Assembly (NCBI RefSeq): GCF_015706575.1 | Contig: NW_024037060.1 | Location: forward strand, 2,664,515-2,728,514 | Direction: 5' to 3' | Length of the DNA: 64,000 bases | Source: Patiria miniata | Lineage: Eukaryota | Part shown: in pieces, positions 1,137 through 57,184 of the stretch | Position numbering within the stretch: the stretch's first letter is position 1 | How the letters are laid out: each line of letters opens with the position of its first letter | The notes under the pieces: generated by a model | Told to the model about the DNA's origin: nothing | The model's database searches: none | What the model saw: the letters and a program-made list of their open reading frames with translations, nothing else | Translations under genes and position numbers: made by a program

Positions 1137-1494
1137 CTATAAACATTGTGAAAAATGGACAAAAAGTGACAATACGCATTTAACTTCGTAACAATCAGTC
1201 GCTCAAATTCATTACACTTAAGGTTTACTTTAAAAAGCTTACTAGTTATTTCATATTTCAAGCATTTTTTTTATTTACCAGTAACTCTCCATATTGTTTT
1301 TTGGGAAAACAGTGAATATTCCTTGAAACAAGATTTTTTTTTTAATCATTAACCCTAAAGTCCTAGCCATCACAATTGTACTTGGGATAAACAACTGAGT
1401 ATTACAGAATCCTATGAGTGTTGTGCACACTTATTTGCTGAAGTATTTCATACTAGTTTACTAGTACTTGGCATTTTGTAGCTTTAGGCCCCCC

Positions 1495-1824
1495 AAAAAA
1501 GTCTCCGGTTTCTGGTATGCGCGCACGTCGCCGTAGCCATGCGCGTTGGCAAAATGAAACAGTTTTTTTTTCAATGAAAGATGATGTCTCAAACCGCCAA
1601 ACTCACTGGTTTGACTGGAATCCTGCTGCTGCACAATTATAACGTGTTTTTAGATTGGGTTATGGTCGAGAATAAGCTTTATGTGGCCTCTCTGGACTCC
1701 CATATATTTGCACTAAGCTTAGTTGGGCACCATTTGCAGTCATCAGTCATCAAAACAAAAAAGCCGCGTCGCCGCACCACTTTGTGGACAAGCTCCATAC
1801 CAGAAACCGGAGACTTTTTTTTTT
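1495..1824. mobile_element. MITE-like element (~330 bp) with ~24-bp perfect TIRs (aaaaaagtctccggtttctggtat / ataccagaaaccggagactttttt)
   Basis: A perfect inverted repeat sits at 1495-1518 and 1797-1824 and encloses non-coding AT-rich sequence. The 83-aa ORF inside is not credible as a gene. Confidence 0.5.
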
Positions 1825-3488
1825 GTCCTTAGGTGAGGTTAGGGTTAAAACTGTCCAAAACTACTATTGGCTAAGCATGTTCACGTAGTTTTATGCCAAG
1901 TGCTGCATGGAGATTGAATGACAGGGGAAACTTCACTGAAAGATCGCCAAGAAGGCGAGGCTAAACAGACATCCATAAATTCACTACATGTACCTGCGTC
2001 TGTTGTCAGGCTCTTCTCACTAGGTTTTGGCTTGATCCCCGCTTCAAAATGAATGGTTGGTATTGGCATGGGGGTTGTTGGTGGCCTTGGTGTGGTTGGC
2101 TTGTTACTGAGAAAAAAAAATTAAAACTGAAAATTATTTGCATAAATCACAAACCACCTACTCGGGTGGCGGTACATTTAACATTGCAGCCGTCAATAAT
2201 AAGGGCTGAGCAGCACTCAAACTTGAATTGCCGTCAAACTTTGTGGTGTCAGTTCTTACTACTTTTACTAATTTCGATATGTTTACCGAGATACTTGAAA
2301 GAAAAGAGGTCCTCCATGTTTTGCTGATTTTAGTAATGTTGTGCAAGCCCGACCAGACTCAAAACCGACTTCGGGTCGGTTTGTCCATCATTTCAGTTGG
2401 GTCGGGTCGGTTTCAGTTTTGCGTTTGCGAAATTTGGGTCGGGTTGGTTAAGCTATTTTGGAAAAACCCGAAAATAAACCGTAATAAACCGAAACAGTTT
2501 GGAAATTCACACGGTGCAAAATTTACTGCAGAGTCACTGTGTCCGGTACGTCCAAATGCGGCCAACCTGACCTGAAGCACAACATTAGTTCTTAGCTAAA
2601 TGAGCCAATGCAATATGGCTGTGCATATATTCGATTTTTATTCCAACTTGGACTTGATCAAATACTCATATATTAGATTTTGAAATGCACTGATAAGTTA
2701 AAATGTGGAAGGCCTAAACTGCCACCGATTGGGATTTGTATTCTTTGCGTTTGTCAAAGATTTCTGAAGAACTTGTTAATATAATATAATGAACAGGTTG
2801 CCAAATGGCCTCATAATTGACCAATTTGAAGAAGAAATTAGAGGTAATATTCCTCATGGAAACTTCCAAATCATGCCAAAAGTGGCACTGAACAAAACTG
2901 TGGCATTTATAATAATAATAATAATAATAATTTGGGAGGCTAATCATCCTTACTCGCAGCTGGTATGCTGAATTGCGAAGGACGCCGCTACAATAAAACC
3001 ACACAATCAATAAACCACACAACCTGGAGACCACCCGTATTTTTTGAATATTTGACTCGAAAATATGCTATTGTGATATTTGGTTTTGATTGAATATTTA
3101 AACATGTGGTATATTCAGCACAACGCTTCAGTTAGATTTTTTTTTCCTCACTCTAGATAATCTTTAGCTAATCGCTTTTGACTAGCCAAAACGTATGCAC
3201 ACATGCAACATTCTTGAAAGACTGCCATGACTGTTATTTCTTCTAAGTCAGCCAGCTCAGTAGCTTGATGAAGTAGTCCAGTTCAAAGGATATTCGGGAT
3301 AAAATGGAAGCGTCTTGTAAATCCGACGATACGCGGACGCCCATTGTGCTCATAATCAATGCAAGAGCATCATGCGATCGTCTCCTTGCACATTCATGTG
3401 CCTTCGATGAATGTTCCATTATTCCGAATGACCTGCGACCAACATCACTGATTTGAAAATCACAGGTGTGTGGAAAAACGCACACCTG

Positions 3489-27940: not shown

Positions 27941-28100
27941 GTGAGTTAACATTCGGACATATTGGTGAGCTAATGGATAATGTTCTCCCCTTATCATGAT
28001 GCATCCAGATCTAAAATTAAGCGTTATTTCCCTTTCATGTGTACTGGGTGAATAGCTAGCGAAAAAAGTTCTCTTCTGCTGCATATCCATAATAACGTCC

Positions 28101-39080: not shown

Positions 39081-39157
39081 GCAACCGAAGATTTGCCGGC
39101 AAGACAACGTTTACGAAACAGTGGAGGATCTGGGCAAAGGCGCAGCTATCGAACAAG
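39081..39157 (+). CDS. Juxtamembrane cytoplasmic exon (RQPKICRQDNVYETVEDLGKGAAIEQ)
   Basis: The acceptor is ttttcaatag| and the donor is AACAAG|gtaagc. Only this reading frame keeps phase between the TM exon (phase 2) and the terminal exon (phase 1). It contains a DNVY motif. Confidence 0.55.
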
Positions 39158-42100
39158 GTAAGCTGGACATTTTTGGATCATATTTCATTTGGGAAAACAA
39201 ACAAGATAGCAAGGTATAATAAATTTCAATTGTGAAGAGAATATGCAAAATATGACTGTAAATCTGACTCCATTGTGTGAAGGGTGTTCTGTTGGATTTA
39301 AAAGTACGCATTAAACAGCTTTTGTTTTAAATCACTTTCACCTATATCATTTCAAAAGCATTGTCTTTTATGGGTAGGTATACATTCAGACGCCACTTTT
39401 GCAGTCTGTTCAAAATTGAGCTGTATATGATTTCATGACCTGACGTGCAGGCTCATCGGGCGAATTTGAGTGGTCGCTTAAAAGCAGATAGGATCGTTTG
39501 TTTTCATAAATTTTGCGTGTCCACTAATTGCGCCACTCAAAATCCATTGAAGAGTGTTGAAAACCTAACCTGTTAAAGTTTCAGCTCAGTGGATATGACA
39601 CTTTTTCTAGAAAACAGTTTATTGGTTCATTGGTTTATTTTTCATATCATCGAACATAATTCACAAGAATCTATTTAAAGAAAAACAAAAATGATATGAG
39701 AGATCCAGATAAAAACCACGCACAACCTTTTGAGCACGAACTTCGTCCATAGCACTCTTTAGTTCCATTCAATTATTGACTGATCGTTGGAAATCACCTA
39801 CATTTCTTGATTTCTCCTAAATGACAGCAAGCCAGACGGAATTATTTCACGGGGTGTTTAGTACCAGTGCGATCTTTAATCCATTAATAATTTGATAATA
39901 ATTCGGTATACAGCCTGTCTAAAAAAAATGGTACAATCGAAAACGAGTTTTTTTCAATATTAAATCTCAACATAAGTAAGTCGTTTTGAGCATCACATTA
40001 AAGAAAAAAGACCAGGCTTTCCAATACTTTTTGTTTCATCTCATTTGCTTTTGTCAATCCAGAGATAACTCCAGTTTACTGCGGAACACAAAAATCGAGT
40101 TTGTTTCTTTTGCCAAGTTGCAATCTTTTGTGAGCTTCAAGACAGCATAGCACAGTACTCGAAACAACTCTGCCCATGCATAAAAGTGGCACAAAATCGA
40201 TTTTGGTGTATCGCACTAAATTGATTATATCTCTGAATTTACAAAAGCAAATAAGATCAAACAAACGCTATTGGAAAGCCCAGTCTTTGTTCTTTAATAT
40301 TATGCCAAGTAAGAATGACTTATTTTGAAATTTCATATTTAACCATTTTTTTTTCTGATTGTACCATTTTTTTTTTGACAGGCTGTTACATTTGTGATAA
40401 ATGCAAATGATCCTATATAGATGCCTTTAAAACCCACAGTCGACTTAAGATTGTAGTCTGCAAGATTTCGTTTGCAAAAATAAAAAAAGTCCTCAAGCTC
40501 GAAAAAAGGGGACCAATGCAATTGCAAGACAGTGATTACAACACTGCCAAAAGTTGGTTCAATGAAAACCATCTCTACTGATTCAATAATGACAGAAGAG
40601 ACTCACAATGGTGGGCTTTGTTGCACTACAGTGGTTAAAGATCAAAGATGGTTCTCCGTGGCGTTATTTTCGAGTTTCACGTCGAAAAGTTGATTTTTTT
40701 TCTTTCAAACTGTTGTTTCCTTAGCAAATTAAAAGTTATTCACTTTTGAATGAGGCATCGAACGAAACATTCCACCGACTCATAGTCATGGAATTAATTC
40801 TTCCTACAGATTCGAATGATTGACTGCCAGACAATGATTCGGCTCTAGCAGGGCGGGTTCATTTTTTGCGCAAAATGAAAGTCCTTTTTCAGAGGGTTGC
40901 AGACGCCCAAAATCAAAATAATATAGCTTTATTTGAATTAAAAAAACTAAACAAACAGTCAAAATTGAACATTCGTTAGGAGGAAATATTCCCGTTTTTT
41001 TTTAGGAGCACAAGGTTCGTAACTTGAATGCCACGTTGCAGTAATGTTCTTTTATCAATGTTCAGTGTCACCAAAAAAAACCCCCGTGCAATTTTTAGAT
41101 GAATGTGGCGGCGGATGTTATGATAATTTCTGAAAAGAAAAACACCGATATTCCATCGGAGTTCTCTTTCAAAGAAGGAAAAATGTACTCACAAAAATGT
41201 TTATTTCTGTGTCTGATGTGTCATGTTACCACAGCAATACCTTTCAAAAGAGGAAGAACTTTGACAAAATATTTATCAATTTCGGTATGGATGTTTATGC
41301 ATTGAAATTGACACCGATCAACTTTCTCTTCGAACGATGAATGGTGTTTTTTTCCATCGTCAGCAGTAATATCAGAACAAAAAGGCGATATACTGTACAT
41401 TATGCAACATTCGAATTAAAGGCATATAATATCATTTGCATTTATCCCAAAAGTAAGCTGGCGATACGATTTACTATCAAAAAGTGTACTTGGATTAAAG
41501 ATCGCACTGGTATAAACACCCCGTCACATTCTTCCATCTAGCTCTCTGTCCTTTATAAGAAATCAAGAAATGTATCATGATTTCCAAAGATCAGTCAGCT
41601 GACCGATCGTTGGAAATAAAGAGTTATATTTATATTGCCGAGAATGGTACGTTGTGCACAAACGTTTTCAAACTTTCATGACTCCTATAACCCCTATTTT
41701 ACCTTATCCTACCCCCACCAGTTTGGGTACATTTGTGTTTTGGACCACCAGCAATCGATCTAGCCTATTTGCGACATTTAAAATGTTGCCTCTAAATAGG
41801 AGTGTGGCATTGGGAGACATTAAAATGTGTCCTTAATCTACCAGTCGCCCTATAAGGTATAACATTATGACGAAAAAATATCTCGTTAAGGGTACTCATT
41901 CACAGGAATTAATGAAATCAAAAGCATGTGCGTGGTTTCCTCAAAATATGTAATATCCATGAGCTGAAACTTGAACAGTGGAATAGTTTTGGAACATTCT
42001 TTTTTGGATTTTGAGTGGTGTTATTGTTGGAAACGAAGAACAGGCATGAAAAGCAAATGATCCTGTAAGCCCAAAACGTTCGTGTCACTAGACCTTCGTG

Positions 42101-42420
42101 CGCAAACCGCAGGACTATCGACCTGAAAAGACCGACTTTAGAGCAAGATGCCAACCACGCGAACAGTCTGTGGCTTGGTCGCTGACGTGACTTTTAACGC
42201 TGATGATTCTCAGTAGAATCCAACAGGATGTTCGATTTGTCAGCACAGTTCGTGGGGTTTTGCTGAATGCTTTAAAAATAGAATCGGGATAGTATATAGT
42301 CTGTGCCTTACATGAGCAGTTCATGCATTATCAACATTAATCGTTTCAGAACACTTCCGCACTTAGTTTGGAGAAATAACTAGTTAAAAGTGCCATTTCT
42401 TCTATTGTTTGTTTCAAAAG

Positions 42421-44078
42421 TTATCAAGACACCTCCACCGCTACCAGACATGTTTCAACGAGGAGGCAGCACGAGATCTAGCGTGCACAGCTACCACCAC
42501 AGGCCGTTATCCGTGCATTCACCACTGCCGACCATGGACGCCCCACTGCCGGCCAGCGTGGCGGCCATGGTGTGCAACTACGGTGGTGGCCCGCCGGTAC
42601 CGGGCGGTACATCGCGCCGGAGTCTCATGGCCGAGTGGCGTCCCCACGGAGTGCGGGACTCGCAATCAAATCTTATAGATGACCCCAAGACCCAGAATCG
42701 CAGTGGCAAAGCGCTGAGCTGTATCTACAACGGTGGTATTATGATCGAGGATGATTACGCAGATCCTTTTGATACGATCGCACCGACCGGTAACACGGGG
42801 AACCGACCAGCTGGCTACTTACCGATGATTCTAGGACAAGACCAAAGACGGAGCCAATCCCCGGTTCCGAGGAGCAGGACACCGCCAAACCTCTCACGGG
42901 GAAGTTCTCCTGTGACAGTACCTAGGAGTGACTCTCCCATGGGGGTTCAACGATGCGATTCTCCAATGGCGGTACAACGATCTGATTCCCCGATGACGGT
43001 TCAACGATCCGATTCCCCGATGACGGTTCAACGCTGCGAGTCCCCGATGTCTACCCAGCGAAGCTCGTCTCTCATGAACGTCCAACAAAGGTCTGCCTCC
43101 CCCATGACTGTTCACCAAAGTGAACCCAATTTGCATCTCCAGCAGACTGACTCCAACATGAACTTCCATCCCAGTAACTCTTCTGTAGATCTCCGTAAGG
43201 GATTCATGGGAAGTCCATCCAGCTCTCCTCAGAGACAGAGTGCATCCGGATCCCCAAGCTTCGATCCATTTTACTTTACCCTCGAGCAGGGAGCCAAGCC
43301 AGACAGCCCCAAGGGTCCTGATGATGATTACGATGAGCTGGAGCCACAGTCACCCATCAACTCTCCAGCAGGAGGGTTACCATTCGACGGCCGGTCTGCA
43401 TCATCTCGTACAAGCAGCGAGCGCTCCAGGGCGTCATCTCATGCTTCGTCTCGAGGCTCCCTCTCCGCCAACTCCCCCACCTTAGCGTCTTCCTTCGGCT
43501 CTAGCCCGCGCGATGCCGAGATGTTCGCGGTGTTAGACCGCAGACCGGAGACACCCATCAGGCCGGATCTGCCGCGGCGACTTGTGTCCAGCAACGTGTA
43601 CGCGTCCTGCGGGCCTCCCAAGACGTCCTCCACACCGGCGGACGATGGGATCTACTCCAGGTTGAACAGGACCCCATCCCAACGGATGGAGCTACCGACC
43701 GCTCCGCGTGGAGTAGCGGACCTGGACATGAGTACCTACGGTAGGCTGCAGCGTAGCTACTCGGCCAAAATTCCCGCCCGTAACACCACCGATGGCCCGT
43801 ACGGGAAGCTTCCCCAGCGTAGCAGGTCAGCGATGGTTAAGAGTCATCAAAACGTGAGCGGATCGGCGTCGGCCGTGGATTGCGAAGCGGGAGAATGGGT
43901 GCCTGCCGAACTGCACCCACGCCTCGGGCCCCGGAGAACCAAACCGCCTAACGTGACGGAACCACGGAAGAAATCTCGCTGGAGTATCAAGGGCAAGCTG
44001 GGCAAAAAATCGCCAGCGGAGATGGATTTTGACTGCCCATCATCGACGGCAACTCTGCCCTACCCTGGTGATTGGTAG
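42421..44078 (+). CDS. Terminal exon: ~550-aa Ser/Pro-rich disordered cytoplasmic tail with 6-7 tandem nonapeptide repeats (S/C-D-S-P-M-x-V-Q-R) and three YxxL motifs; stop codon at 44076-44078
   Basis: The 562-aa ORF in the track is this exon. The acceptor gtttcaaaag| at 42420 falls inside the ORF and is in phase with the preceding exon (g+tt gives Val). The composition is typical of MEGF10/PEAR1/Draper tails (S/P-rich with multiple tyrosines). The tandem repeats and the YSRL, YGRL and YGKL motifs are read directly from the sequence. Confidence 0.75.
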
Positions 44079-46424
44079 GGACAGTAACAATGCTCGCGCG
44101 GTGGTTTAATGAAGCAAACAAATTCTCACTGCTCAGTAGAGCTTTGCTAAGCGAGAGGGTGGCGAGTGAAGTGGTGTGGTGGGCAAGAGCTCAAAACCAT
44201 TTGTCATTTTAACACTGACACCAAATTTAAACAAGTTATACTTTAAGTATTTTTTATATTAAGAAAAATCCTCTTTCTGAGACAGATTCCGGGCGAAATT
44301 GAAACGTCAGGAGCTCCATCTTTTGTGATAATTTTCGTACTTAAGCATTCCATCAAATTTCAAAGTAACCGTGCGTATGAATACTTTCCCCACAGAAAGA
44401 TGAGTGGCGTGGTTTAAACAACTTCCTTTTGACTTTGGATATTTTAATAATTATACTCTACCCATAATCCAGACATTATTTTAAGAACTTAACATAAAAT
44501 ACAATAACTTATACGAATACGATAAACACTTTGAGGTATATACCTGTATAGGGAAAGGTTTCAAGATAAGGTATAGTGCCTATGCGTTGGAAAAAGACTA
44601 GCCTCTTTTGAGGGAATCCAATATGTCTTGAAGAATTTTTTTAACCGGACTATCAGGGCTTATGAAAAAGAGGACTCTACACCATCCGATCTCATTGTTT
44701 AACTATACTTTTCTAGAAAATGCCTGTATCATAACTTGAACTCTTTGTAGCGTTTGGAGTAAGAGTTAGGATAAAATAAGGTTAACAAGATAATTGTCAG
44801 CAACCGGACGGAATATGGTAACGTCCGTTAGATCGGGAGCAGATGGAGAGGTTTCCGTTATTTGGCGGTGTAGCGGAAAACCACATCAAGCTGAAGGAGG
44901 AAGTCTGCCTTATGCATACCATCCAAGAGAACCATGTACTTTTACTGTATGGATATTTAATAACGACCTTGTATACGTGTTTTTGCAAAAGGCATGGAAG
45001 GTTTTGAAAACATAGACCTTGTCTCCGGTTCGGCTTGAGAATACAGTTTTACGATGTTTGGCCCTTGACCTGGAGATTTATGTTCAAGATTGGATCTATT
45101 TTCTGTCACTGATCATAGAATCTAATAGTCTGTCGCCAAACATAATAATGTTCATTCGGTTCGAGGAATAAATGCTCCTGAATAATTCAAGAACCGGAGA
45201 CGAACCGAAGCCGAACGCAGACGAAGCACAGGTTGAGAAAATTGCTTTGACATTTTTGGATACTAAACATTGTGTACATAACGTTTGAGACGAAGGTGTG
45301 GCCATTGAAAGCGCATTCGACGACTGTTTCCTTTCATCTTGGATGAGAGTTCTTCATAAGATGAAAACTCCTCCATGCTCGGACCGCCTGCGCATACTGC
45401 ACAAGGAACTAACGGTTTCCTTCTAATACTCGTGCATACTGTTTTGGGAGAGGTTGGTTGATTTCGAGAAATAGATTTGAGACATATAATTTATTAAAAG
45501 AATACTATTCTGGTTCGGGACTGCAAAGATTGAAATTTAATTGTCGAGGCGTAAGATATCTCTCCATTTTTAAGGGGAGGGGCGATGAATAAGTTCACTG
45601 AATCTTGTATAATACTGAATAACTATTTTGTTGCCTTTTTGTGATACTTTATCAAGATTGTAAAAGACCTAAGCCTATTTTCAGTAAAGATTTACTTGTT
45701 GGAAAACCCTTTATATTATTGTAGAATTTCTGCATATTTGGTTATCTAGAGCTACTCTATATGTGACAAAGACAAACTAACAAAAATAGCAAGAAATGTT
45801 CAATGCATTTTTAAACAGCATCCGCTGCTTTATTTCAAGTATATATTTTCATACTTCTCTTCCAAAAGGAATAAGCTATACTCACAACTATACCATAAAT
45901 ATAGGAATTCACAATATTTCCTAAAAGCCTGTACACTGAATACATATTATTTATAATAGTCACTCGCATATAAAATAGACGCTTTGCATTACAAAAGATT
46001 AGGATTGTAAATAATAATAATAACGTACACGCTGCTTTTTTGTATATATCTTGTAATAAAAAAAAATGGAATTTAAAAAATAAAAGTTTTTGAATACAAA
46101 TATACAAGAATAGTTGCAGCCAACTTTAATGCTGTTTATATAAATATAATTTAAATATGCCGGTGGAATTTTCATTCATCTGAAAAGAATACAAACATTT
46201 TTTCTTTAAATTTTTTTTTTTTTTTGGAAGTACATTTCTTGGGGTAAATTATCAGGACGTGATTCGTAAGAACTTTAAACTAACCTCTGATTGCAAACTC
46301 ACATTTTTAGAGCATAGCTAATTTCTTAGACAATCCATGCTTTACGATTATTTCAATTGAATTTCTTTACTTTCATTCAATTTCATGGTCATTTTCCTAT
46401 ACCCAATGTGCTAGCCTATTGTCG

Positions 46425-46500
46425 TCTGATTGACTGACTCCCGACTGACTGACTATATGACTGACTGACTCCCCGACTTTGTGACTGACTACACCCGGTA
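46425..46500. repeat. (GACT)n-based microsatellite (gactgactgactcccgactgactgact...)
   Basis: Imperfect tetranucleotide repeat read directly from the sequence. Confidence 0.7.
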
Positions 46501-46593: not shown

Positions 46594-47078
46594 ATCTTTA
46601 ACCCTAAAGGGGCCGGGGGGGGGGCGGAATCCCCCCCCCCCTTCAACATTTTCCGCGATAGCCTCTAAAAAATTTTTTTTCGTGACCCAAGCTGTTATGA
46701 CTTTTTAGCCTCGAGCTTTGCGCATCTTTTGATACCAAAAACATAATAATCAGACCACAGGTTGCCGCGTAGCGAAACATTTTCCGGCGCTACGCGCCGT
46801 GAAAACTGAATTTTCGCATATACGTCGTGTACACTGAGCAGAATTGCCATTTGTCCATATGAATAATTAATTAGCCATAATTCCAAAACCCTTTGACCTA
46901 TAGTAATGAAATTTCTTGGGTTTGTTTAGGAAGAGTTGCTCTATGCATGTGCTGAGTTTCAACATTTTTCGTCACTCGATGGCCGAGATCTTAGGGGGGG
47001 GGGCGGGGGGGGGGGGGGGGCGGAATCCCCCCGGCTGAGAGATGGTCAAAATAACCCGGCCCATTTAGGGTTAAATTA
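46594..47078. mobile_element. piggyBac-like MITE (~480 bp): TIRs CCCTAAAGGGGCCGGG / CCCGGCCCATTTAGGG flanked by TTAA on both sides
   Basis: The ~16-bp imperfect terminal inverted repeats begin with CCC and end with GGG, and a TTAA lies immediately outside each end (ttTTAAccctaaa...tttagggTTAAat). There is no ORF inside. The internal sub-terminal direct repeats are gggggcggaatcccc. Confidence 0.55.
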
Positions 47079-47382
47079 AAAGATATTCCATGACCAATTC
47101 CTAAGCTGGACTGGCACCCTAGGAGCCTATACACTGGCCAGTCATCATCATGAGGCAAGGGACGCCACTCCCTTTTCAGTCTACCAGTTTTGACACAAGA
47201 CCACTGCGCAGCACAAAAGCATCAGAATGGTGCATTAAACATGCAATGAGTATAGAGCAGACATTATGAAGAGGAAGTATAGTAAAGTGGAATGCAAACT
47301 GGAAGACTGTCATTGCCAAATATTACGCATCATCACTATGGGTTGTGCAGGATTCCATGACTTTTCCATTACTTTTTTCCTT

Positions 47383-47493
47383 GTAATATCAACTTTCCAT
47401 GACTCCTTGTAAAATCACAAAATATTACATGACTTTTCCCATGAATTTTTCCCTTGCAATATCAACTTTCCATGACTCCTTGTACAATCACAA
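47383..47493. repeat. 57-bp minisatellite (catgacttttcc...ttgcaatatcaactttccatgactccttgtacaatcacaaaat), 2 units; 2 further units at 48048-48160 beyond the LINE insertion
   Basis: The same unit appears on both sides of the LINE fragment. Confidence 0.75.
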
Positions 47494-47516
47494 AATAATA
47501 ATAATAATAATAATAA

Positions 47517-48048
47517 GACAGTCTTATATAGCGCAAAACATAACCGAGGGAAATCTCAATGCGCTTAACAAAGCAAACATAGGTAAGCAAAAATTACAGT
47601 GAATGAGAGTAGGCCAATTGAAACAGATGGGATTTGAGGTTAGATTTGAAGTTGTCTATGGTTGGAGCTGTTCGAAGTGGGGATGGAAGGGCATTCCACA
47701 ACTTGGGAGAGACGTGTGAGAATGCCTTTGAGCCGTATGATTTGGTCCTTGGTATAGTTGTTGTGAGGAATCCCTGGGAAGATGAACGGAGAGATCTGGG
47801 AGGATGGTGTGGTTGTAGCAGCTCAGTAATGTAGCTTGGAGCAGTTCCGTTTAGGGCCTTGAAAGTAAGCAGAAGGGTTTTGTAGCGAATGCGCTGCCGG
47901 ATGGGCAGCCAGTGGAGGGATTTGAGGGTTGGAGTGATGTGGTTGCATTTCTTGGAAAGGGATACCAGACGGGCAGCGGAGTTTTGGATGCGTTGGAGTT
48001 TGTCAATTTCTTTGTCTGGGAGGCCAGTAAGTAGGCAGTTGCAGTTAT
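47517..48048 (-). mobile_element. 5'-truncated CR1/L2-type LINE 3' fragment (ORF2 C-terminal tail and 3'UTR) with a (TAT)n tail at 47494-47516
   Basis: The 176-aa - strand ORF contains the conserved LINE ORF2 C-terminal signature LHWLPIRQRIRYKTLLLTFKALNGTAPSYITELL...RSLRSS...SKAFS...PKLWNALP...FKSNLKSHLF. The element ends in a trinucleotide microsatellite, as CR1/L2 elements do, and it is inserted precisely between units of a 57-bp minisatellite. Confidence 0.7.
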
Positions 48049-48918
48049 TACATGACTTTTCCCAATGATTTTTCCCTTGCAATATCAACTTTCCATGACT
48101 CCTTGTACAATCACAAAATTCCATGACTTTTCCTGATACATTGTAGCTTCAAATTTCAGGATTTTCCCATGTCTGTGGGATAGGACATTCCAACAAGTTG
48201 AGAGTGATTAAGTAGAGTCCATTGCGAGTCCTCACAATTCCAACAATTTCTCACAAGTCCATCACGAGTCATCCAGGATCAAGTCAACTCACAAGCTAAT
48301 CACATGAACTGTGAAAGACCGATTCCTTTGTTACTGTACATCCCCTGTTTCTTGTGAGCTGACTTGTAATTTAACTGGATTTGCGATGGCCAACTTCAAC
48401 ACTGCAAATTAAAATCTACAATGTATAATTACAAGAAATAAAAGCAAGGACTGTAGTTATAAATATACAAAAATAATTATAGGTGGGTAGGTGGAGCGGG
48501 TCGGCTTTTTGTTCCCTTCATTGTTCCGACACTGTCTCAAAACGCTTGAAGCATGACCATGCTTAAAGGCTCATTTGCATTTATCCAAAAGTAACGTACC
48601 AAATTATTATCAAAAGCTTACTTGGATAAAAGATTGTACTTGTATTAAGCACCCCATGAAATTACTCCGTCTGGCTTGCTGTCATTAAGAAGAAATCAAG
48701 AAATGTAGGTGATTTCCAACGATCAGTCAATTGACTGACTTTTGGAACGAGGTACACACTGACCAAATCGTGTTTCGAGATCACAAAGTTGTGCATGGTT
48801 TTTCACTGTTTCCTCGAAAAGTGGAATATCCACCAAGCTGAAACGTCAACAGTTTAGGCTTTGAAGAATCTTCTTTGGATTTGAGTGGGTTTTGGTATTG
48901 GAAATGAACAAATTGCAT

Positions 48919-49256
48919 GAACACGATCCTACACTTCCAATGAACACAATCCTACACTTCCAATGAACACGATCCTACACTTTCAATGAACACGATCGTA
49001 CACTTTCAATGAACACGATCCTACACTTCCAATGAACACGATCCTACACTTCCAATGAACACGATCCTACACTTCCAATGAACACGATCCTACACTTCCA
49101 ATGAACACGATCCTACACTTCCAATGAACACGATCCTACACTTCCAATGAACACGATCTTACACTTCCAATAAACACGATCCAACACTTCCAATGAACAC
49201 GATCCTACACTTCCAATGAACACGATCCTACACTTCCAATGAACACGGTCCTACAT
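48919..49256. repeat. 23-bp minisatellite (gaacacgatcctacacttccaat)n, ~15 units
   Basis: Direct tandem repeats with few variants. Confidence 0.9.
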
Positions 49257-50473
49257 GTACATGCCTTTAACACTAGGTTTTGGTGGAGAAAAAAATAGCT
49301 TAACATGTCATTGTTTCTGGTAATAGTTCCAGATCAGTATGAGTTATAACACACACAAATCTTCAAAAAACCACAGCGCTGTAATGTCAGACGTCATTCT
49401 CTATCTTACAATATACAAACCCCAAATACATTTACATGAAATACGTTTACTCTTAAAACAAACTTCCTCTGATTTCAGATGATATTAATGAATACATTTT
49501 GCAATTCCAAAGATCGATTGTTTGCATTAAAACAAACAGTGAAGGCATATATTTTGCATGAAAGTAAAACCAAAGTCTCAAAGCAAAACCAAAACCAGAT
49601 GTAGCAATCTACAGAGACACAGTGAAGAAACCATGGCAGTTATTTTTCTGTGACGTTCTCCAAAAAGGGTTCCCTGAAATGCCAAAGGATGTGAACTTGC
49701 AGTGTGTGTTCTGCCCTACTTCCTGCTTAAAGGGGTCCACGGCATTAATTCACACTGCAATATATTTTGTGCTCATTCCCATTTCTCTGAAACGTATGTA
49801 AACTAACAGACATCCCTCTCTGGATAATGTTTTTTGCATTGTGCACTTTTTTGGAAACATATAAAGTAGAGTTCACATTTTAGTTTATTCCTCTGGACAA
49901 TTTTAAAGGCATATAGGATCATTTTCGTTTACCCCAAAAGTAACCTGCCCAATTATTATCAAAAAGCTTTTACTTGCATTAAAGATCGCACTGGAACAAA
50001 ACACCCTGTAAAATGATTCTGTGTGGCTTGTTGTCATTTCAAAGAAATCAAACAATGTAGGTGATTTCCAACGATCAGTCATTTGACCGATTTTTGAAAT
50101 ACAGAGATATAATGAGGAAGTCGTGTTTCGTGATAAAATGTTGAGCATGGGTTTTTCACTGTTTTCTCGAATGGTTTTCCACTGTTTACTCCAATAGTGT
50201 GGTTTCCACTGAGCTGAAACTTCAACAGGTTAGGTTTTGAACGTTCCTCTTTGGATTTTGAGTGGTGTTATTATTAGAAATGAACAAAATGCATGAACAG
50301 TAAAATTATTATCCGACATGCCTGGAAAGGATTCCTATATGCCTTTAAAATATTTCTATCGAAATGTGTCTTTCACGGAATTGGTAATGGTTAATTACCT
50401 TCCACTGCTATGACCCGAGTTCAGATGTGGCCAATGTGTGGATTGTGGTTTTTAGTCTCTAGCTGAACTCTTA

Positions 50474-50475: not shown

Positions 50476-50513
<38 letters not shown>
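50476..50513. repeat. C38 homopolymer (G38 on the - strand) in the putative 3' flank of the ankyrin/coiled-coil gene
   Basis: An uninterrupted run. There are many further G/C runs of 12-27 nt elsewhere (361-386, 6811-6822, 23876-23920, 24354-24400, 32086-32104, 35218-35232, 37398-37424, 46612-46640, 46996-47020, 63481-63504, 63948-63961). Confidence 0.9.
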
Positions 50514-50515: not shown

Positions 50516-50955
50516 AATGTCATGGGGTTTTCCCTCCCTCCGGTAAAACTTTTATTTCCTTCCTTGTCTTCTACCAATGATCCTAACTGGATATTTAGTT
50601 GAAACACTCTGTGGAATGACAAATGATAATAAACAAAAGGGGGAGGACACAGCAACAAAATATACAGTACCGAAGTCAATACATTAAGATATGTTAAAAT
50701 TGTTCAAGGTTTGAAGCAACTCACAACATTTGGCAACATTTTCTCATTGATGATTGTTCTCACAATTTTTAAAATCAAAATTAAATTGAAAGGATTAATA
50801 ATAAATTGTATCAAGAAGGGAATGTAAGCAATTAAAAAAAAAAGGAATTCAGCCCGAGTCTTAACATCAAGCCCATGTACAGTTCAAGTATCTGAGCTCT
50901 ACAAAATTCAGCAAACTCATATAAAATGTGAGAACAACAAATACCTAGCAGCTTT

Positions 50956-51052
50956 CATAGGTAGCAGATGTGTCGTTCAAAGCCACTGGAAGACTCAGCG
51001 TGGAATGGTAGATTGTCGTTTGGATCATCTTCATCGTCAGAACTCTCATACC
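50956..51052 (-). CDS. Candidate last coding exon (WYESSDDEDDPNDNLPFHAESSSGFERHICYL*), with the stop at 50956-50958
   Basis: The acceptor is tctgtttag|, the exon is in phase, and it carries an acidic Ser/Asp tail. A - strand AATAAA-like signal lies at about 50553, followed by a C38 run (G38 on the transcript strand). Confidence 0.45.
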
Positions 51053-51427
51053 TAAACAGATAACGGATGCAATTACCAACAATAGAAATCTGTATTTCTG
51101 TTACTGTAAACAATTTAGTACAGGTCTTTCGTTCTGAGAAATTCTCGTGTATGTATTCAGCTCTGTAAACCTTACATCAGAGATTTATTGCAGCTTTGTG
51201 TGTGTATGTTGCAGAATCCAAAACTGGCATAAACACAACAGAGAGAGTATTTACTTAGGTTGTTTAAAGGTGATATACAACATTTGCTTTTGTTGTAATT
51301 TTCAGAAATGGATGGATTTGGGGGTTAGTATTTTATAGCAAATTTTGTTACACTGACCTGTTTAAAGTTTAAAGGGGGAAGAAACAATGAGTCAAAGTTG
51401 TGATAATATCAATAACTTCTGAACTTA

Positions 51428-51516: not shown

Positions 51517-52011
51517 TCTGTAAAAAAACAACAAGTACTCTTACTACAGTTTCCTACAAATTCTTTCCGTTAATGGACATTACGACTTTTCCTTTTTGAA
51601 TGTTCCTGTGTGTCAAAATAGCTCCAGCCATGGAAAAAGGGTTAATAAAAGATTAATATTTTGGCTTAAAAGATCTACTCTTGAACTAGCAAGGGTACAG
51701 TGTCATTTCTCCAGCCCTACATTATGGACTTCAGAATCCCAAAAGTGCTGCAAAAAGGTCCAGTCTGGAACGATTTCAGAAAATCAGAACAAATACTCAC
51801 ATATTTTTTCTCATACTACCACTTTTTAAAAATAAGGGGGTCAAAAATATTATATTAGATTAAAAAGAAATATTCAGCCATTACTGGAGTTGGTTTGAAC
51901 TAGTTGAAAAACAGCTTTGTGTACATTAAACATGACTTTTCCTCATTGTCATCTCTGAATTTGGTATGTGCTAAACTGCACAAAATGAGCTCACAAAAAA
52001 AAAAACCTTAC

Positions 52012-53593
52012 CAGGTCCTTTGGAAAACTGCTGTTCTCTTCCTCATGTTGTGGTATTGCTTTCCTCATTTTGTGGCTGTCCGATCCTTCGTGGTCACCCT
52101 CATCACTGCTGTAGCTGAACAGGCGGAAATTCCTGCCACCGAGTGGCGATTTGTCATCAGGACTCATAGAGTCCTTAGACTTCTTGGCATCTGCCTCGCG
52201 TGAGCTTGCTTCTCTTTTGTCACTCTTCTGAGTATCTTTCTTCTGACTCTTGGAATCATCTTTGGTGGACTTCACCAAATCGGGAGCCTCGTAGATGGGC
52301 GATAAGTCCCGGCGTTTGTTAAGCGGAGGCTTTGCGTTGGTTGAAGGTGCTACCGGATCGGATTTAGCCTCTTTGTTGTCTAGGGCAAACGTGATATGCT
52401 TCTCTTGAGACTTTTTGGTCTGGGACTTCTTGGAGAGGATGCCTCCTCGAGGAGGCTGCCTGACGGGGCGGGGAGACTCATCAGCATCGCTCTCCGACCA
52501 AGGGATGTCTGAGGACAAGCTACTGACGCTGGAGTTGGACCCGACCCGCTGGTGAGCAGACAGCTCCTGGGTCTTGCTGGTTGCCGGGGAGGGCAGGAGC
52601 TCTAACTCCTCCCGGTTGCTGATCTTGACGATAACCTTCCCTGATTCGGGCTCTCCGAACTCATTAGTGGGCTGAACCTTCCTCATGAAGCCGGGCAAGG
52701 CCTGCTGGCAGTGCTTGGGATTCTGCGAGTAAAGCTTAGCTGAGATCTGGTGAAGGTTATCAGAGATCTGCGGGAGTTTTTCGAATGTTGGAAGCAGGTA
52801 AGGCATGGGGCTTCCTTGCTGCTCCCATCCCAATGGTACCGTCCTATCCTGGGATGTATTCGGATCAGTTTTGTCCATACAGTGTGGCTCCTCATCTTGG
52901 TTCCTCAGGACAGTGTCTGGTTTCTTGGCCTTGTCCTCTGCCCCGATGGAAGACTCAACTCTGAGGGAACTCTTGGAGTGTTTTGAGCAAAACTGCTCGT
53001 AAGAAGGTGGAGAGGTGACAATACGTGCACTATCTCCTGAAGACCTGAATTGTTCATGGAGGGTTTTTTCGACAGTCGACTTAACACTGAGACCTTGTTG
53101 CAAAGGCTCACTGTACTCAATAGACGCCTGAACATGGTGAACATTCGCCTTAGACTGCGGCAGTTTTGGATTTTTACCGTCGTTCCTTGATCCAGTAATG
53201 CCTCCTGTCATATATTGCACACTTGGGTTATCCTTCGTTTGGAAGTCTAGTGAGTGGGGAAGACTAAACCTTTGATCTTGAGTGTCTCTCAAAGGGTCAC
53301 TGGGTTTAGATCCAAGTAAAGAATTCTGTGTTACAGGTTGTGCCGTTTCCATTTTGCCTTCATTTGCAGACATCCCCCTTGGTGATAGTTCCTCGTTCCA
53401 CGATGTCTTGCATTTCTTAGCTGAGTGACCCGGGGAGGACTGTACCACTCCCGTTTGTAGGGAGGATGAGGATGAGCTGAGGGATGAGGTGTAACTGCTG
53501 CTCAGGCTGAGGGTGTCTAGGTTGTCAGAGGCCAGACTAGGGCTGGGGTGATGGAGGGTGGATATCTGCTGGTTGACCTCACTCAAACGAGCT
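52012..53593 (-). CDS. Very large Ser-rich low-complexity exon (~527 aa) of the ankyrin/coiled-coil gene
   Basis: This is the interior of the 599-aa - strand ORF in the track. The acceptor is ttactatttcag| at 53593, and a strong donor GACCTG|gtaagg lies at 52012. Alternatively, read-through to the in-frame stop at 51991 would make this the last exon. Confidence 0.65.
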
Positions 53594-54047
53594 CTGAAAT
53601 AGTAATTATAGTAACTCATAAAAAAGGAAACTTGGTTCATGAGTTCAAAACCTGATGGGGAACATGATGATTGTGTCCTTGGGAAAGACACTTTACTAGA
53701 ATTGCATCTTTCAACCCAAGAGTATAAATAGGTACCTGTGAGGGTAGAGACCAGATTGCATTGCTCTTGGCTGCAGGTAAGTGGTCTCATGGCCTGATGA
53801 ACAGGGGTAATAACTGTAAAGCGCTTTGAGACCTACCTTTGGTGGAGAGTGCTCAAGCAACACACATTATTATTATTATCAAATCTCTTGTCTAGAGCTA
53901 CTGTCTCAGTCTGCGACTATTACAAATACATGGGTGCATGCTGACAGTAGACATAGCCATAGCACTGGAAGCCTGTGGACACGGCCTCTTGATGAACAAA
54001 CAGAAAAGTTAACTACAAGTCTGAACTGAAATTGAAAATACAAATCC

Positions 54048-54272
54048 TACCGTACCTCATAGAGTCCAATGCCAGACCCGTCCTTAACTCCGTGGGAGGG
54101 GCAGGCCATATCGGACTGGTCGGTAGCGGCTGCAATCTGCTCAATCGTCTCTCTATCTCTTGCAGCTGGTCTCTGTTAGCTTCCAGCTCCTGCCGTTGGT
54201 CTAGCTCTAGCAGCTCTGAGCAGGCCTGCTCCAGTTGATCGGCCTTCTGCTTGGATACTAACAAGTCATCCC
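54048..54272 (-). CDS. Coiled-coil exon (DDLLVSKQKADQLEQACSELLELDQRQELEANRDQLQEIERRLSRLQPLPTSPIWPAPPTELRTGLALDSMRYG region)
   Basis: The acceptor is ttgactgcag| and the donor is CTATGAG|gtacgg. It is in phase with the 55215 exon only if no intervening micro-exon is used. It matches the 83-aa - strand ORF in the track. Confidence 0.65.
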
Positions 54273-55214
54273 TGCAGTCAAAACGGTTAATGATGTGGAG
54301 TCGTTATCAGGCAGGAAATCCTTGAGAAAAATTAAAGTAGACTTTGCACATTTCATTGAAGGAGCAAATGAATGGAGAGAATGCACCCCTTTGGCTGAAA
54401 CATGTTCACCAAGACGATAATAGTTGAAAAAGTTGGTTAAATCCTGTAGCACCAGCTCGTTGGAAAGATGTCTACTATAAATTTCTGCTAAATTTCACTC
54501 GGGAGGTAACACACTGTGTATACAGTGTTTATACGTCGGTGAAGGGCAAAAAACCTAAATTTGATTTACATCACCCGATGCAAAATTCCATCTTATGTAT
54601 GAATTAATAGTTTTTAAATTGGTCCATTTCATGAAACTACCACAAATGCATGATCCTCTTTAACACCTGCTAGCTACCAGACTAGCTGGCTTGCACCCAT
54701 TCAGGTATGTGTAACTGATTGCAAACAAAATGTGGACTAAGTAAATTCTGTTTACCTGTTCAATGGACATGGAGCTACTTAGCAGAAAAAAAATACTCCT
54801 TGAGCAGTAGAATGATGGACGCCGTGTGCCAACAGTAGAGAACGCTTTTTAACCGCTTTCAAACTCCAGAGGAGGGACATATTGCATGTGCGTACCGTTT
54901 CGTGCGCGTATGGAGTGAAGTAGGCACCATTATTATTATTCCGAATGTGTACAAAACAATGGTGTTCTTCGCGTGAATGGTAGATGTATGCCATCATCAA
55001 TGCGTTTGTATGTCCCTCACAGTGGTCTTCCCCAACTCTCTCTTTGCAACCGTTGAGGGGGTACTTGTGCATAAAGTCTATTGGCTAAGCACGAATCTGC
55101 TGACTACTACTCATGAGCAATTTATATTGCATGGCAACATTGTTGATAACATGTTTTGCTACGCAAATAACTACTGCAATTTAAAGCAGATTTCTGACTG
55201 ACAAGTATTTTTAC

Positions 55215-55387
55215 CTGGATGTGGTGGATCCTGACTGGTTTCCCGCATCAGTCTGGTGCCGGTGCATCTGGTCAAGCTGACGGACCAACAGGTTGGTCAG
55301 GTCGACGTACTCCCCCTGGATTTGCTCAATACGCTGGGTGAGGTCCGTCTTCTGCGTGTGGACCAGGGCATCGGTGCAGGACATGGC
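55215..55387 (-). CDS. Coiled-coil exon (AMSCTDALVHTQKTDLTQRIEQIQGEYVDLTNLLVRQLDQMHRHQTDAGNQSGSTTS)
   Basis: The acceptor is tacctcaag| and the donor is ATCCAG|gtaaaaa. The heptad-like composition suggests coiled coil. Confidence 0.65.
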
Positions 55388-56042
55388 CTTGAGGTATTTG
55401 TAGAGAGATCAAAATTATTTGAGATGATCAAAAATGATTCCCCCCCCCCAGGAACAGCCCCCAATTCCAACTGTTGTATTTTATATGGAGCATATCCCTG
55501 GACACAAGACCCTGTATAACATTTCATAGCTTTTGATCAATTTCCCGAAAAGTATTGACATATTGACAGACTGCCAACATAATAATCATGTATTAACTAG
55601 CTATGAGGTCACTAGTATGCATCTATTTCCCCTCTGGAACTGCAAGAGAAATAGGCCTCGGGAAATAGAACTATCTTGTGGTCACTCACAGGTCTAGGGG
55701 GCGGGGGAAGGGTAGGCATAGATGTGTACTAGTGACGGAAGAATGCAATCACTACGTTTTGAGAGTCTTACCACCTTGCATGCACATGACACTTGACACA
55801 TGTCTAGTTCACACTCTATGTAACTGCCATACACTACCCTACAATAGTGAAGCCCACGTGACCATGTTTTTAGCTAACCAAGACAACAACAAACAGGTGT
55901 GATTGAATCGTAGACTGCTCAGTTAGTACAGCACTCCGACAGAAGTCAAAAGGTCATGGGTTCAGGGTCTGCTCTAGTCCTGCTAAGCTCATTCTTAAAG
56001 GCATGTAGTGATTTATGAGCAATATATGACTACGATCTCACC

Positions 56043-56085
56043 TCTCTCAGCTTTTTGGCCAATACGTCTTTCTCCTGTTGACTTC
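56043..56085 (-). CDS. Small coiled-coil exon (ESQQEKDVLAKKLRE)
   Basis: The acceptor is gtttaatacag| and the donor is GAGAG|gtgagatc. Only this frame is open and in phase with both neighbours. Confidence 0.5.
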
Positions 56086-56793
56086 TGTATTAAACACAAA
56101 ATAGTACAACAGAAAATATGAATTCCAAATTGGTTTGCATTTTCTTTTTAACAATACTGTATTAAAGGAAATAATGCAAACAATCTTTACGACACAAAAT
56201 GAGATAACTAAAAATAACTTGTGGAAACAATTGTTATCCTGGATTAAAAATTGAATTGTACGCTATTTTGGGGGTTGATTGTGTGTGGCTTTTAAAAAGA
56301 TCCACATGAAAATTTACAGACAATTATGTAAAATCACACAGCTTTCACAAGACTCCTATATTAATTCTGCAATGTTAATTATGTTTGAAAAGTTACCAAA
56401 TTAATTAACCCTAACCCTGCCAGACACAACACAGTGCATCAGGTGGAAAAGAACTGGTGCACTTTGATGCATTCAGCTACCAACACCAGTGCATGAATGA
56501 CCAGCTCTGAAACAATGAGAGCTAAGTCCTATTGATCAATGCCACAGGTGTCTCCTGCTGCATTCAGTGACCACAGACTCTGAGGCAGTTTGGCCTTGAG
56601 ACTTTTGACCTGATGGATCTTGCTACATTTGGCAGGCTTGTCACTTAGTCAAGTGTTGTATGTTGCTACGTTTGGCAGGGTTAGGATTTCATTGTAAACT
56701 AAAATTTACAATTCTTAACTGCGTTATAATTATTCTTTTCTGATCAAGTTAGCAGAATATGGTAATGAGAACGGTATGCTAAAAGCAGCTTAC

Positions 56794-56963
56794 TCTCTCA
56801 GTTTCCTCTGCGTAACGGTCAGCTCATTGGACAGTTTGATGCAGGTTTCCACGACGACCAGATACTGAGCACAGGGGTGGTGGTGGTACCTGGTGGCCAA
56901 CGTGCACGGCGATTGCTTCTTCTTGTTGAGTAGAGTCACGTCGGAATTGAATTCAACCAGAGT
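56794..56963 (-). CDS. Exon after the ankyrin domain (TLVEFNSDVTLLNKKKQSPCTLATRYHHHPCAQYLVVVETCIKLSNELTVTQRKLR)
   Basis: The acceptor is gacttcag| and the donor is GAGAGA|gtaagc. It is in phase with the previous exon at 58092-58330 and with the next exon at 56043-56085. Confidence 0.6.
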
Positions 56964-57184
56964 CTGAAGTCATGAAGGAGACAAAAAAAAAAATAATACC
57001 GGAGTCTGATATAGCGCACGTATCTACTAACAATTAGGTACTCAAGGCGCTGGAAATTACATGTATGTCTATTTTTAAAGACAGGTAAATGAACTGTGTG
57101 AGAAAATGTGAGCTCCATTATGCAGCACCTTAATAAGGGTTTACAAGGTGCTGCGGGGAATATTGCAGCCACTGCCATAAACAC

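What the first reader, a model, noticed from the sequence alone, without database searches (positions are those of the whole stretch)
46594..47078. Non-autonomous piggyBac-like MITE with TTAA target-site duplication
The termini CCCTAAAGGGG...CCCATTTAGGG (CCC...GGG) are flanked on each side by TTAA. This is exactly the piggyBac insertion signature. The ~480-bp interior has no ORF but has G/C-homopolymer-rich subterminal repeats (gggggcggaatcccc). This suggests a piggyBac-superfamily transposase has been, or still is, active in this genome.
Basis: partly seen in the sequence, partly recalled or inferred. Interest (0 to 1): 0.5.

Follow-up and report, generated by a model that had tools for sequence, protein, structure and literature searches.

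The report
piggyBac-type miniature transposon in echinoderm DNA
This is a 469-base, non-coding "cut-and-paste" transposon of the piggyBac type, sitting between two genes of an echinoderm (probably sea star) genome; it is a well-formed but ordinary member of a well-known class of mobile DNA.

Summary
The element spans window 46602-47070 (469 bp) and is flanked by TTAA at 46598-46601 and 47071-47074. It has 16-bp terminal inverted repeats with 15 of 16 matches (CCCTAAAGGGGCCGGG / CCCTAAATGGGCCGGG) and 5'-CCC...GGG-3' termini. It has no meaningful ORF. A G-run/CGGAAT/C-run motif lies next to each end.

None of 200 simulated windows gave such a TTAA-flanked 16-bp TIR.

TTAA duplications are made by two superfamilies, piggyBac and Kolobok. 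Kolobok ends are 5'-RR...YY-3'. This element has CC...GG, so it fits piggyBac. A Kolobok-type MITE family (TTAA|AGGCA...) has four copies in the same window.

The motifs lie at unequal distances from the two TIRs (overlapping the left one, 22 nt from the right one), recalling piggyBac's 3/31-bp asymmetry. They are direct repeats, not inverted.

A second, degenerate TTAA|CCCTAAAG...TTAGGG|TTAA element lies at 1349-1848.

I found no transposase partner, no further full copies and no empty site. The source genome is not in any searchable collection. Copy number, and therefore "MITE" in the strict sense, and current activity remain untested.

Verdict: a new member of a known kind, of low to moderate interest.

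The parts
46598..46601 (.). Left copy of the TTAA target-site duplication
   Evidence: Read directly. It is identical to the right copy. The reconstructed empty site is ...CAGAAATCT-TTAA-ATTAAAAGA...
46602..47070 (+). The whole non-autonomous element (469 bp). The + orientation is assigned by analogy with piggyBac: the end whose motif abuts the TIR is called the left end.
   Evidence: There is no ORF longer than 76 codons and no protein homologue. There is no Rfam match at gathering score.
46602..46617 (+). Left terminal inverted repeat, CCCTAAAGGGGCCGGG
   Evidence: It pairs at 15/16 with the reverse complement of 47055-47070.
47055..47070 (-). Right terminal inverted repeat, read inwards as CCCTAAATGGGCCGGG
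   Evidence: I6: 21 nt including TTAA, 95% complementary.
46615..46641 (+). Left subterminal motif G10-CGGAAT-C11, which can form a hairpin. It overlaps the last 3 nt of the TIR.
   Evidence: (D6).
46994..47032 (+). Right subterminal motif G10-C-G16-CGGAAT-C6, in the same orientation as the left one. It is separated from the right TIR by the 22-nt spacer 47033-47054.
   Evidence: D6: 26/28 direct match to 46609-46636.
46642..46655 (+). Short direct repeat TTCAACATTTTCCG. Its second copy, TTCAACATTTTTCG, is at 46958-46971.
   Evidence: D15, 13/14. Its significance is unknown.
46766..46796 (.). Internal palindrome CGCGTAGCG-13 nt-CGCTACGCG
   Evidence: Read directly. The surrounding 56 nt fold with z = -2.66.
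47071..47074 (.). Right copy of the TTAA target-site duplication
   Evidence: Read directly.
1349..1848 (+). Candidate second, degenerate piggyBac-like element: TTAA|CCCTAAAGTCC...GGTTAGGG|TTAA. It has a 492-bp interior, or 147 bp once a nested Tourist/Harbinger-like MITE (1487-1828, TTA duplication) is removed.
   Evidence: TTAACCCTAA occurs 5 times against 0.22 expected. The pair is correctly inverted and matches at 8/10. Its first 8 nt are identical to the left end of the main element.

Best explanation
This is a non-autonomous, internally deleted or MITE-type transposon of the piggyBac superfamily. It inserted into a TTAA site about 2.5 kb downstream of a gene in an echinoderm genome.

Inferred mechanism, from the established piggyBac pathway: a piggyBac (DDE_Tnp_1_7) transposase encoded elsewhere in the genome binds the 16-bp TIRs, and probably the G-run/CGGAAT/C-run subterminal motifs. 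It nicks at the TTAA/CCC junctions, forms and opens hairpins on the transposon ends, and excises the element precisely, restoring a single TTAA. It then inserts the element at another TTAA, which becomes duplicated.

Shown here: the TTAA duplication, the CCC...GGG termini, the 16-bp TIR, the lack of coding capacity, the unequally spaced subterminal repeats, and the non-random nature of the structure.

Inferred: the identity of the transposase, its action in trans, the role of the subterminal motifs, and whether the element is one of many copies.
For: - Perfect TTAA on both sides, a 15/16 TIR and CCC/GGG ends.
- 0 of 200 simulated windows reproduce the 16-bp TIR. Pairs with 8 or more of 10 matches number 2 here against 0.038 expected.
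- The family definition is met. It requires a TTAA TSD, a TIR of 12-19 bp, TIRs usually starting CCC, and asymmetric subterminal repeats 3 and 31 bp from the TIRs in the type element (Bouallegue et al. 2017, PMC5381638; PMC10813416).
- Here the subterminal motif abuts the left TIR and lies 22 nt from the right TIR.
- Kolobok, the only other TTAA-specific superfamily, has RR..YY termini (PMC9587614; PMC13565253). These are not met here, but they are met by a different four-copy MITE family in the same window.
- A second TTAA|CCCTAAAG...TTAGGG|TTAA element at 1349-1848, and the enrichment of TTAACCCTAA (5 against 0.22 expected), suggest more than one insertion with this end.
- TIR/TSD-bounded piggyBac elements with 16-bp TIRs are documented in echinoderms, in Lytechinus.
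Against: - There is only one full copy in 64 kb.
- No piggyBac transposase remnant was found in the window or in 73 kb of related sea-star DNA, by tblastn or by a profile HMM built from insect piggyBac proteins.
- No related sequence turned up in the viral, metagenome or prokaryote collections beyond two isolated chance matches: one inside a viral contig with no partner end nearby, one in a bacterial genome.
- No empty site could be recovered. The syntenic loci of other sea stars do not align in this interval, and the flanks have no paralogue.
- The subterminal repeats are direct, whereas those of the type element are inverted.
- Because TTAA is a palindrome, a TA duplication with a 17-bp TIR (ACCC...GGGT) is formally possible.
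Confidence: 0.85

Rival explanations
1. It is a Kolobok-superfamily MITE. Kolobok also integrates specifically at TTAA, and Kolobok-type MITEs are common in this genome.
For: Kolobok makes a TTAA TSD. Four copies of a TTAA|AGGCA...TGCCT|TTAA family lie in the window, and at least five copies of a similar family lie in the Asterias amurensis locus L004.
Against: The Kolobok signature is 5'-RR...YY-3' termini. This element has 5'-CC...GG-3'. It shows no sequence similarity to the Kolobok-type copies in the window.
Confidence: 0.04
2. It is a Tc1/mariner-type (Stowaway-like) MITE with a TA duplication and a 17-bp TIR ACCCTAAAGGGGCCGGG. The outer T and A would match by coincidence.
For: TTAA contains TA. 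The inverted repeat can be read through the palindrome (I6, extends even one base beyond TTAA).
Against: This reading requires the outer T...A to match by chance (about 1 in 16). It leaves the CCC...GGG/CCCTA start unexplained, which is typical of piggyBac TIRs. The second element at 1349-1848 is also flanked by a full TTAA.
Confidence: 0.04
3. It is a PIF/Harbinger (Tourist-like) MITE with a 3-bp TTA or TAA duplication.
For: TTA (or TAA) can be read on both sides. A Tourist-like MITE with a TTA duplication does exist in the window at 1487-1828.
Against: A 3-bp reading puts the two TIRs out of register by one base (ACCC... against CCC...). The symmetric solutions are 4 bp or 2 bp.
Confidence: 0.02
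4. It is a chance inverted repeat in AT-rich DNA and not a mobile element.
For: TTAA is common, at 433 sites in the window. TTAACCC/GGGTTAA 7-mers are not enriched, at 10 against 9.9 expected.
Against: 0 of 200 simulations gave a TTAA-flanked 16-bp TIR. An analytic expectation is about 1e-4 per window. The 14-nt subterminal motif occurs only at the two ends.
Confidence: 0.01

Closest known systems
piggyBac (IFP2) of Trichoplusia ni, the type element of the superfamily
   Same: Both have a TTAA duplication and a TIR starting CCCTA (type element CCCTAGAAAGATA, from my own knowledge; here CCCTAAAGGGG). Both have a short TIR (13 against 16 bp) and subterminal repeats at unequal distances from the two TIRs (3/31 bp against 0/22 nt).
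   Different: This element has no transposase gene and is 469 bp against 2475 bp. Its subterminal repeats are direct G-run/CGGAAT/C-run motifs rather than 19-bp inverted repeats. There is no sequence similarity beyond the first 5 nt.
piggyBac-derived MITEs, such as human MER85/MER75 and the Xenopus Uribo-associated MITEs (named from my own knowledge, not tested here)
   Same: These are also short non-coding elements that keep piggyBac TIRs and TTAA duplications and are mobilised in trans.
   Different: Those are demonstrated multi-copy families with known autonomous or domesticated relatives. Copy number and partner are unknown here.
PiggyBac-1_Lvar / PiggyBac-1_Lpic of the sea urchins Lytechinus variegatus and L. 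pictus (PMC10813416)
   Same: They come from the same phylum and have 16-bp TIRs starting CCC. PiggyBac-1_Lvar is listed with TTAA on both sides; PiggyBac-1_Lpic is listed as TAAA/TTAA.
   Different: Those are 4.6-4.8 kb autonomous elements whose TIRs start CCCAT. The host is a different echinoderm class.
Kolobok-type MITEs (window 49907-50344 and three more copies; Asterias amurensis L004 family)
   Same: They have a TTAA duplication, a size of 380-440 bp and no coding capacity, and they occur in the same genomes.
   Different: Their termini are AG...CT (RR..YY), against CC...GG here. There is no sequence similarity.

Membership tests
piggyBac superfamily (non-autonomous member) | 4-bp target-site duplication with the sequence TTAA | tested here: met
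   TTAA at 46598-46601 and 47071-47074, immediately abutting the TIRs.
piggyBac superfamily (non-autonomous member) | Termini 5'-CCC...GGG-3' (more loosely C[C/A/T][C/A/T]) | tested here: met
   CCCTAAAG... / ...CATTTAGGG. The criterion comes from PMC5381638 and PMC10813416.
piggyBac superfamily (non-autonomous member) | Short terminal inverted repeats of about 12-19 bp | tested here: met
   16 bp with 15/16 matches. 0 of 200 simulations reproduce this.
piggyBac superfamily (non-autonomous member) | Subterminal repeats placed asymmetrically at the two ends (3 and 31 bp in the type element) | tested here: inconclusive
   The motif overlaps the left TIR and lies 22 nt from the right TIR, so the spacing is asymmetric. 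However, the two copies are direct repeats, not inverted. This rests on a single element.
piggyBac superfamily (non-autonomous member) | A cognate DDE_Tnp_1_7 transposase encoded by an autonomous element with the same TIRs | not testable with these tools
   None was found in the window or in 73 kb of related DNA. The source genome is absent from the searchable collections. All 120 listed best hits of the T. ni piggyBac protein search that carried a name were insect proteins.
piggyBac superfamily (non-autonomous member) | Precise excision, or an empty site with a single TTAA | tested here: inconclusive
   The syntenic loci L002 and L004 bracket the site but do not align between the conserved anchors. 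The flanks have no paralogue.
MITE (as a class) | Many near-identical short copies in one genome | not testable with these tools
   There is one full copy in 64 kb plus one degenerate element sharing the first 8 nt. External scans were empty.
Kolobok superfamily | TTAA target-site duplication | tested here: met
Kolobok superfamily | Termini 5'-RR...YY-3' | tested here: not met
   The element has 5'-CC...GG-3'. The criterion comes from Kojima & Bao 2022.
Tc1/mariner (Stowaway-like MITE) | TA target-site duplication directly abutting the TIRs | tested here: inconclusive
   This reading is formally compatible, because TTAA contains TA. It needs an extra coincidental T...A and an atypical ACCC start.
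PIF/Harbinger (Tourist-like MITE) | 3-bp TWA duplication with the TIRs in register | tested here: not met
   A 3-bp reading shifts the two TIRs out of register by one base.

The most novel reading that the evidence does not exclude
The element would be evidence of evolutionarily recent piggyBac transposition in a sea-star lineage. A published survey of six echinoderm genomes, which included the sea star Patiria miniata, reported TIR/TSD-bounded piggyBac elements only in Lytechinus sea urchins. On this reading the direct, hairpin- and G-quadruplex-prone G10-CGGAAT-C11 subterminal motifs would be an unusual kind of piggyBac subterminal binding site, rather than incidental homopolymers of a genome rich in G/C runs.
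Probability: 0.25. Interest if true: 0.35.

Novelty: new member of a known kind. Interest (0 to 1): 0.2.

Why it matters
The element is a clean example of a piggyBac-type non-autonomous transposon in an echinoderm, probably an asteroid. Echinoderm piggyBac elements are sparsely documented. If the family is multi-copy and its intact ends and duplication reflect youth, an active piggyBac transposase may exist in the lineage. That would be of some use for transgenesis tools and for annotating TEs in sea-star genomes.

It also illustrates a practical point. In these genomes most TTAA-flanked MITEs are Kolobok-type, so TTAA alone does not identify piggyBac. Beyond that it is ordinary repeat annotation.

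Tried and rejected
- **Other copies in the window.** blastn with word size 7 found only G/C homopolymer matches.
- **External DNA scans.** I scanned for TTAA+TIR and for TIR+motif. Metagenomes gave 0 and 0. The viral collection gave one hit, judged a chance match because it lies inside a viral contig with no partner end nearby. Prokaryote genomes gave one hit, in a Pseudooceanicola genome, taken as chance on expectation alone; the locus was not opened.
- **Spurious ORF as a handle.** I used the 76-codon frame inside the element to look for other copies in the protein collection. There was no candidate.
- **Autonomous partner.** tblastn with the T. ni piggyBac protein gave nothing. A profile HMM built from 92 of the piggyBac proteins returned by that search (the named ones are all insect) also gave nothing in the window, L002, L003 or L004. 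The best tblastn hit, at 1176-1331 (E = 0.026), looks like chance on inspection, and the same ORF (1170-1349) reaches only E = 0.68 with the profile.
- **Protein search for echinoderm piggyBac proteins.** The 120 hits listed were insect proteins wherever they carried a name, so no sea-star partner could be examined.
- **Empty-site test.** I tried the orthologous loci of three other sea-star sequences. Synteny is conserved but the interval does not align. There is no paralogous empty site.
- **ncRNA content.** Rfam gave only sub-threshold hits driven by GC hairpins. There are no tRNAs.
- **Literature search for the terminal sequence.** The seven papers returned have titles unrelated to transposons; I did not open them.
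- **The TTAACCCTAA site at 56405.** I considered it as the end of a 3.4-kb element reaching 59828. I rejected this because the TIR matches only 6/10 and the interval contains ankyrin-repeat coding exons.

Full report
**Observation.** A TTAA at 46598-46601 is followed by CCCTAAAGGGGCCGGG. At the other end, CCCGGCCCATTTAGGG (47055-47070) is followed by TTAA at 47071-47074. The element proper is therefore 46602-47070, 469 bp. Its terminal inverted repeats are 16 bp with one mismatch. The motif GGGGCGGAATCCCC occurs exactly twice in the 64-kb window, both times inside the element, against 0.06 expected from shuffles. The longest stop-to-stop reading frame inside is 76 codons. It shares no words with any of 5.8 billion database proteins. 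Rfam and tRNA scans find nothing above threshold.

**More than chance.** TTAA is frequent, with 433 sites. The 7-mers TTAACCC and GGGTTAA are not enriched, at 10 against 9.9 expected. The full structure, however, is far from random. In 200 Markov-1 simulations of the window, no TTAA pair 80-3000 bp apart enclosed a 16-bp inverted repeat with at most 1 mismatch. With a looser rule (TTAA|CCC on both sides, at least 8/10 matches), the window has two such pairs, against a simulated mean of 0.038. Only 1 of 1000 simulations reached two.

**Anatomy.** Reading inwards from the left end, the 16-bp TIR runs straight into G10-CGGAAT-C11 (46615-46641). The G-run overlaps the last three bases of the TIR.

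From the right end, the 16-bp TIR is followed by a 22-nt spacer (47033-47054). Only then comes the same motif, G10-C-G16-CGGAAT-C6 (46994-47032).

The two motif copies lie on the same strand. They match 26/28 as direct repeats and about 73% as inverted ones (D6 against I5/I10). Each can fold into a G-run/C-run hairpin, though no better than shuffled sequence of the same composition.

The interior also holds a 14-nt direct repeat, TTCAACATTTT(C/T)CG, at 46642 and 46958. It has a 9-bp-stem palindrome at 46766-46796. Nothing in the interior resembles anything else in the window.

**Which superfamily.** TTAA duplications are not unique to piggyBac. Kolobok is also TTAA-specific, and its termini are 5'-RR...YY-3' (Kojima & Bao 2022, PMC9587614; PMC13565253). 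This matters here, because Kolobok-type MITEs are abundant in these genomes.
- A family with ends TTAA|AGGCATA...TATGCCT|TTAA has four copies in the window: 49907-50344, about 48567-49266, about 41420-42057 and about 39503-40426.
- A similar family, TTAA|AGGCAGTGGACAC, has at least five copies in 50 kb of Asterias amurensis.

The element under study has 5'-CC...GG-3'. It fails the Kolobok signature and meets the piggyBac one. The piggyBac definition is a TTAA TSD, a TIR of 12-19 bp, and TIRs that mostly begin CCC (PMC5381638; PMC10813416).

The unequal spacing of the subterminal motif (0 against 22 nt) recalls the 3/31-bp asymmetry of the subterminal repeats of the type element. With a single copy and direct rather than inverted repeats, I count that feature as inconclusive.

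Because TTAA is palindromic, two other readings are formally possible. A TA duplication (Tc1/mariner) needs a coincidental outer T...A and an atypical ACCC start. A 3-bp TTA/TAA duplication (Harbinger) puts the TIRs out of register. Both are much less parsimonious.

**Other copies and a partner.**
- *Within the window.* There is no second full copy. The 10-mer TTAACCCTAA occurs five times against 0.22 expected. Two occurrences are the ends of this element. Two more form a correctly inverted pair at 1349 and 1848. One is solitary, at 56405, in a telomere-repeat-like CCCTAACCCT context among ankyrin-coding exons.
- *The pair at 1349-1848.* It encloses 492 bp. Of these, 1487-1828 is a nested Tourist/Harbinger-like MITE with a TTA duplication, which has relatives in another sea-star contig. 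Removing it leaves a 147-bp element, TTAA|CCCTAAAGTCC...GGTTAGGG|TTAA. Its TIR matches 8/10, and its first 8 nt equal the left end of the main element. I regard it as a probable older relative. It gives partial support to the idea that a transposase recognising this end acted more than once.
- *Transposase remnants.* None appears in the window or in 73 kb of related sea-star DNA. I searched by tblastn with the T. ni piggyBac protein and by a profile HMM built from 92 of the piggyBac proteins returned by the protein search.
- *Public collections.* Scans for the TSD+TIR and for the TIR+motif returned nothing from metagenomes. They returned one isolated match in a viral contig, with no partner end nearby, and one in a Pseudooceanicola genome; I take both as chance.
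- *Protein search.* Wherever the 120 listed hits to piggyBac carried a name, they were insect proteins. No sea-star autonomous element could be inspected.

**Host and context.** The 562-codon ORF at 42390-44078 is the last exon of a gene whose other exons lie at 27853-39165 on the + strand. This gene is the orthologue of a 982-residue uncharacterised protein of Asterias amurensis, at 49% identity. The three database relatives are 63-84% identical to each other and about 50% identical to the window. The source is therefore an echinoderm, most likely a sea star outside the Asterias group, and it is not in the searchable collections.

Synteny holds. The Asterias locus has a convergent ankyrin-repeat gene downstream, as does the window. 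The element lies about 2.5 kb past the stop codon, in the 3' flank or intergenic region.

Conserved anchors at 45898-46022 and 50955-51053 bracket the site in the related contig L002; only the second anchor also aligns directly to the Asterias locus L004. The interval between them does not align. The flanks have no paralogue. No empty site could be recovered.

**How it most likely works.** By analogy with the established piggyBac pathway (my own knowledge of the family), a transposase supplied in trans binds the TIRs and subterminal sites. It cuts at the TTAA/CCC junctions through hairpin intermediates and excises the element precisely. It then reinserts it at another TTAA, which is duplicated. 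Only the footprint of the last step is shown here, namely the duplication together with the intact matching ends. The intact TSD and the 15/16 TIR are consistent with a fairly young insertion, but I could not date it.

**Verdict.** Strict 'MITE' status (copy number), the autonomous partner and current activity remain open for lack of the source genome.

This is a new member of a known kind. A survey of six echinoderm genomes reported bounded piggyBac elements only in Lytechinus, so a sea-star example is mildly noteworthy, but it is not surprising to a specialist. Interest 0.2; confidence in the piggyBac assignment 0.85.

Noticed in passing
window 49903-50348; also about 48563-49270, about 41416-42057 and about 39503-40430 (reverse strand): A four-copy MITE family flanked by TTAA, with ends AGGCATA...TATGCCT (5'-RR..YY-3'). 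These are Kolobok-type rather than piggyBac-type. Copies are 74-84% identical.
   Followed up: partly
L004 (Asterias amurensis CP134956.1): 776-1163, 4168-4551, 10853-11239, 12578-12951, 40134-40524: At least five copies of a roughly 380-bp MITE, TTAA|AGGCAGTGGACAC...GTGTCCACTGCCT|TTAA, in 50 kb. This is a Kolobok-type family whose first bases resemble those of the window's family.
   Followed up: partly
window 1487-1828 (TTA duplications at 1484-1486 and 1829-1831); L002 about 5908-5975 and about 18440-18520: A Tourist/Harbinger-like MITE with TIR GG(C/A)C...AAAAAAGTCTCCGGTTTCTGGTATG. It is nested inside the candidate second piggyBac-like element. Its end sequence is about 82-84% conserved in a contig from another sea star.
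   Followed up: partly
window-wide, e.g. 365-386 (G22), 37398-37424 (G27), 50476-50513 (C38), 24354-24400 (G15...C18): There are 22 G or C homopolymers of at least 8 nt in 64 kb, where roughly 0.3 would be expected from base composition. Related sea-star loci also carry them, at 1-5 per 10 kb. Several form G-run/C-run palindromes. Their origin is unknown: TE-borne, slippage, or assembly error.
   Followed up: partly
window 48917-49255: A tandem array of a 23-nt unit (ATGAACACGATCCTACACTTCCA), 14.7 copies at 95% identity. It has expanded inside one copy of the Kolobok-type MITE.
   Followed up: no
window 27853-44078 (+) and about 51991-59800 (-): Two convergent genes. One is the orthologue of a 982-residue uncharacterised Asterias amurensis protein, whose last exon is 42390-44078. 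The other is an ankyrin-repeat gene. The gene order matches that of A. amurensis. The 599-codon ORF at 51991-53790 has no Pfam match.
   Followed up: partly
window 45898-46022 and 50955-51053: Short stretches conserved at 70-77% with other sea-star sequences: L002 14571-14695 (and, via L002, L004 43244-43391), and L002 18649-18750 / L004 47561-47661. The second coincides with the end of the ankyrin gene in L004. The first may be a conserved non-coding element.
   Followed up: no
window 47352-47497 and 48047-48158: 73-74-nt repeat units (ATTACATGACTTTTCCC...) flank the 176-codon ORF at 47594-48124, which has no Pfam match. This may be another repeat element.
   Followed up: no
window 46426-46490: An imperfect (GACT)n / 16-nt microsatellite about 110 bp upstream of the element.
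   Followed up: no
window 56405-56418: TTAACCCTAACCCT, which is 2.3 units of the telomere-type repeat CCCTAA preceded by TTAA. It is a solitary match to the TTAACCCTAA end motif, probably unrelated to transposition.
   Followed up: partly
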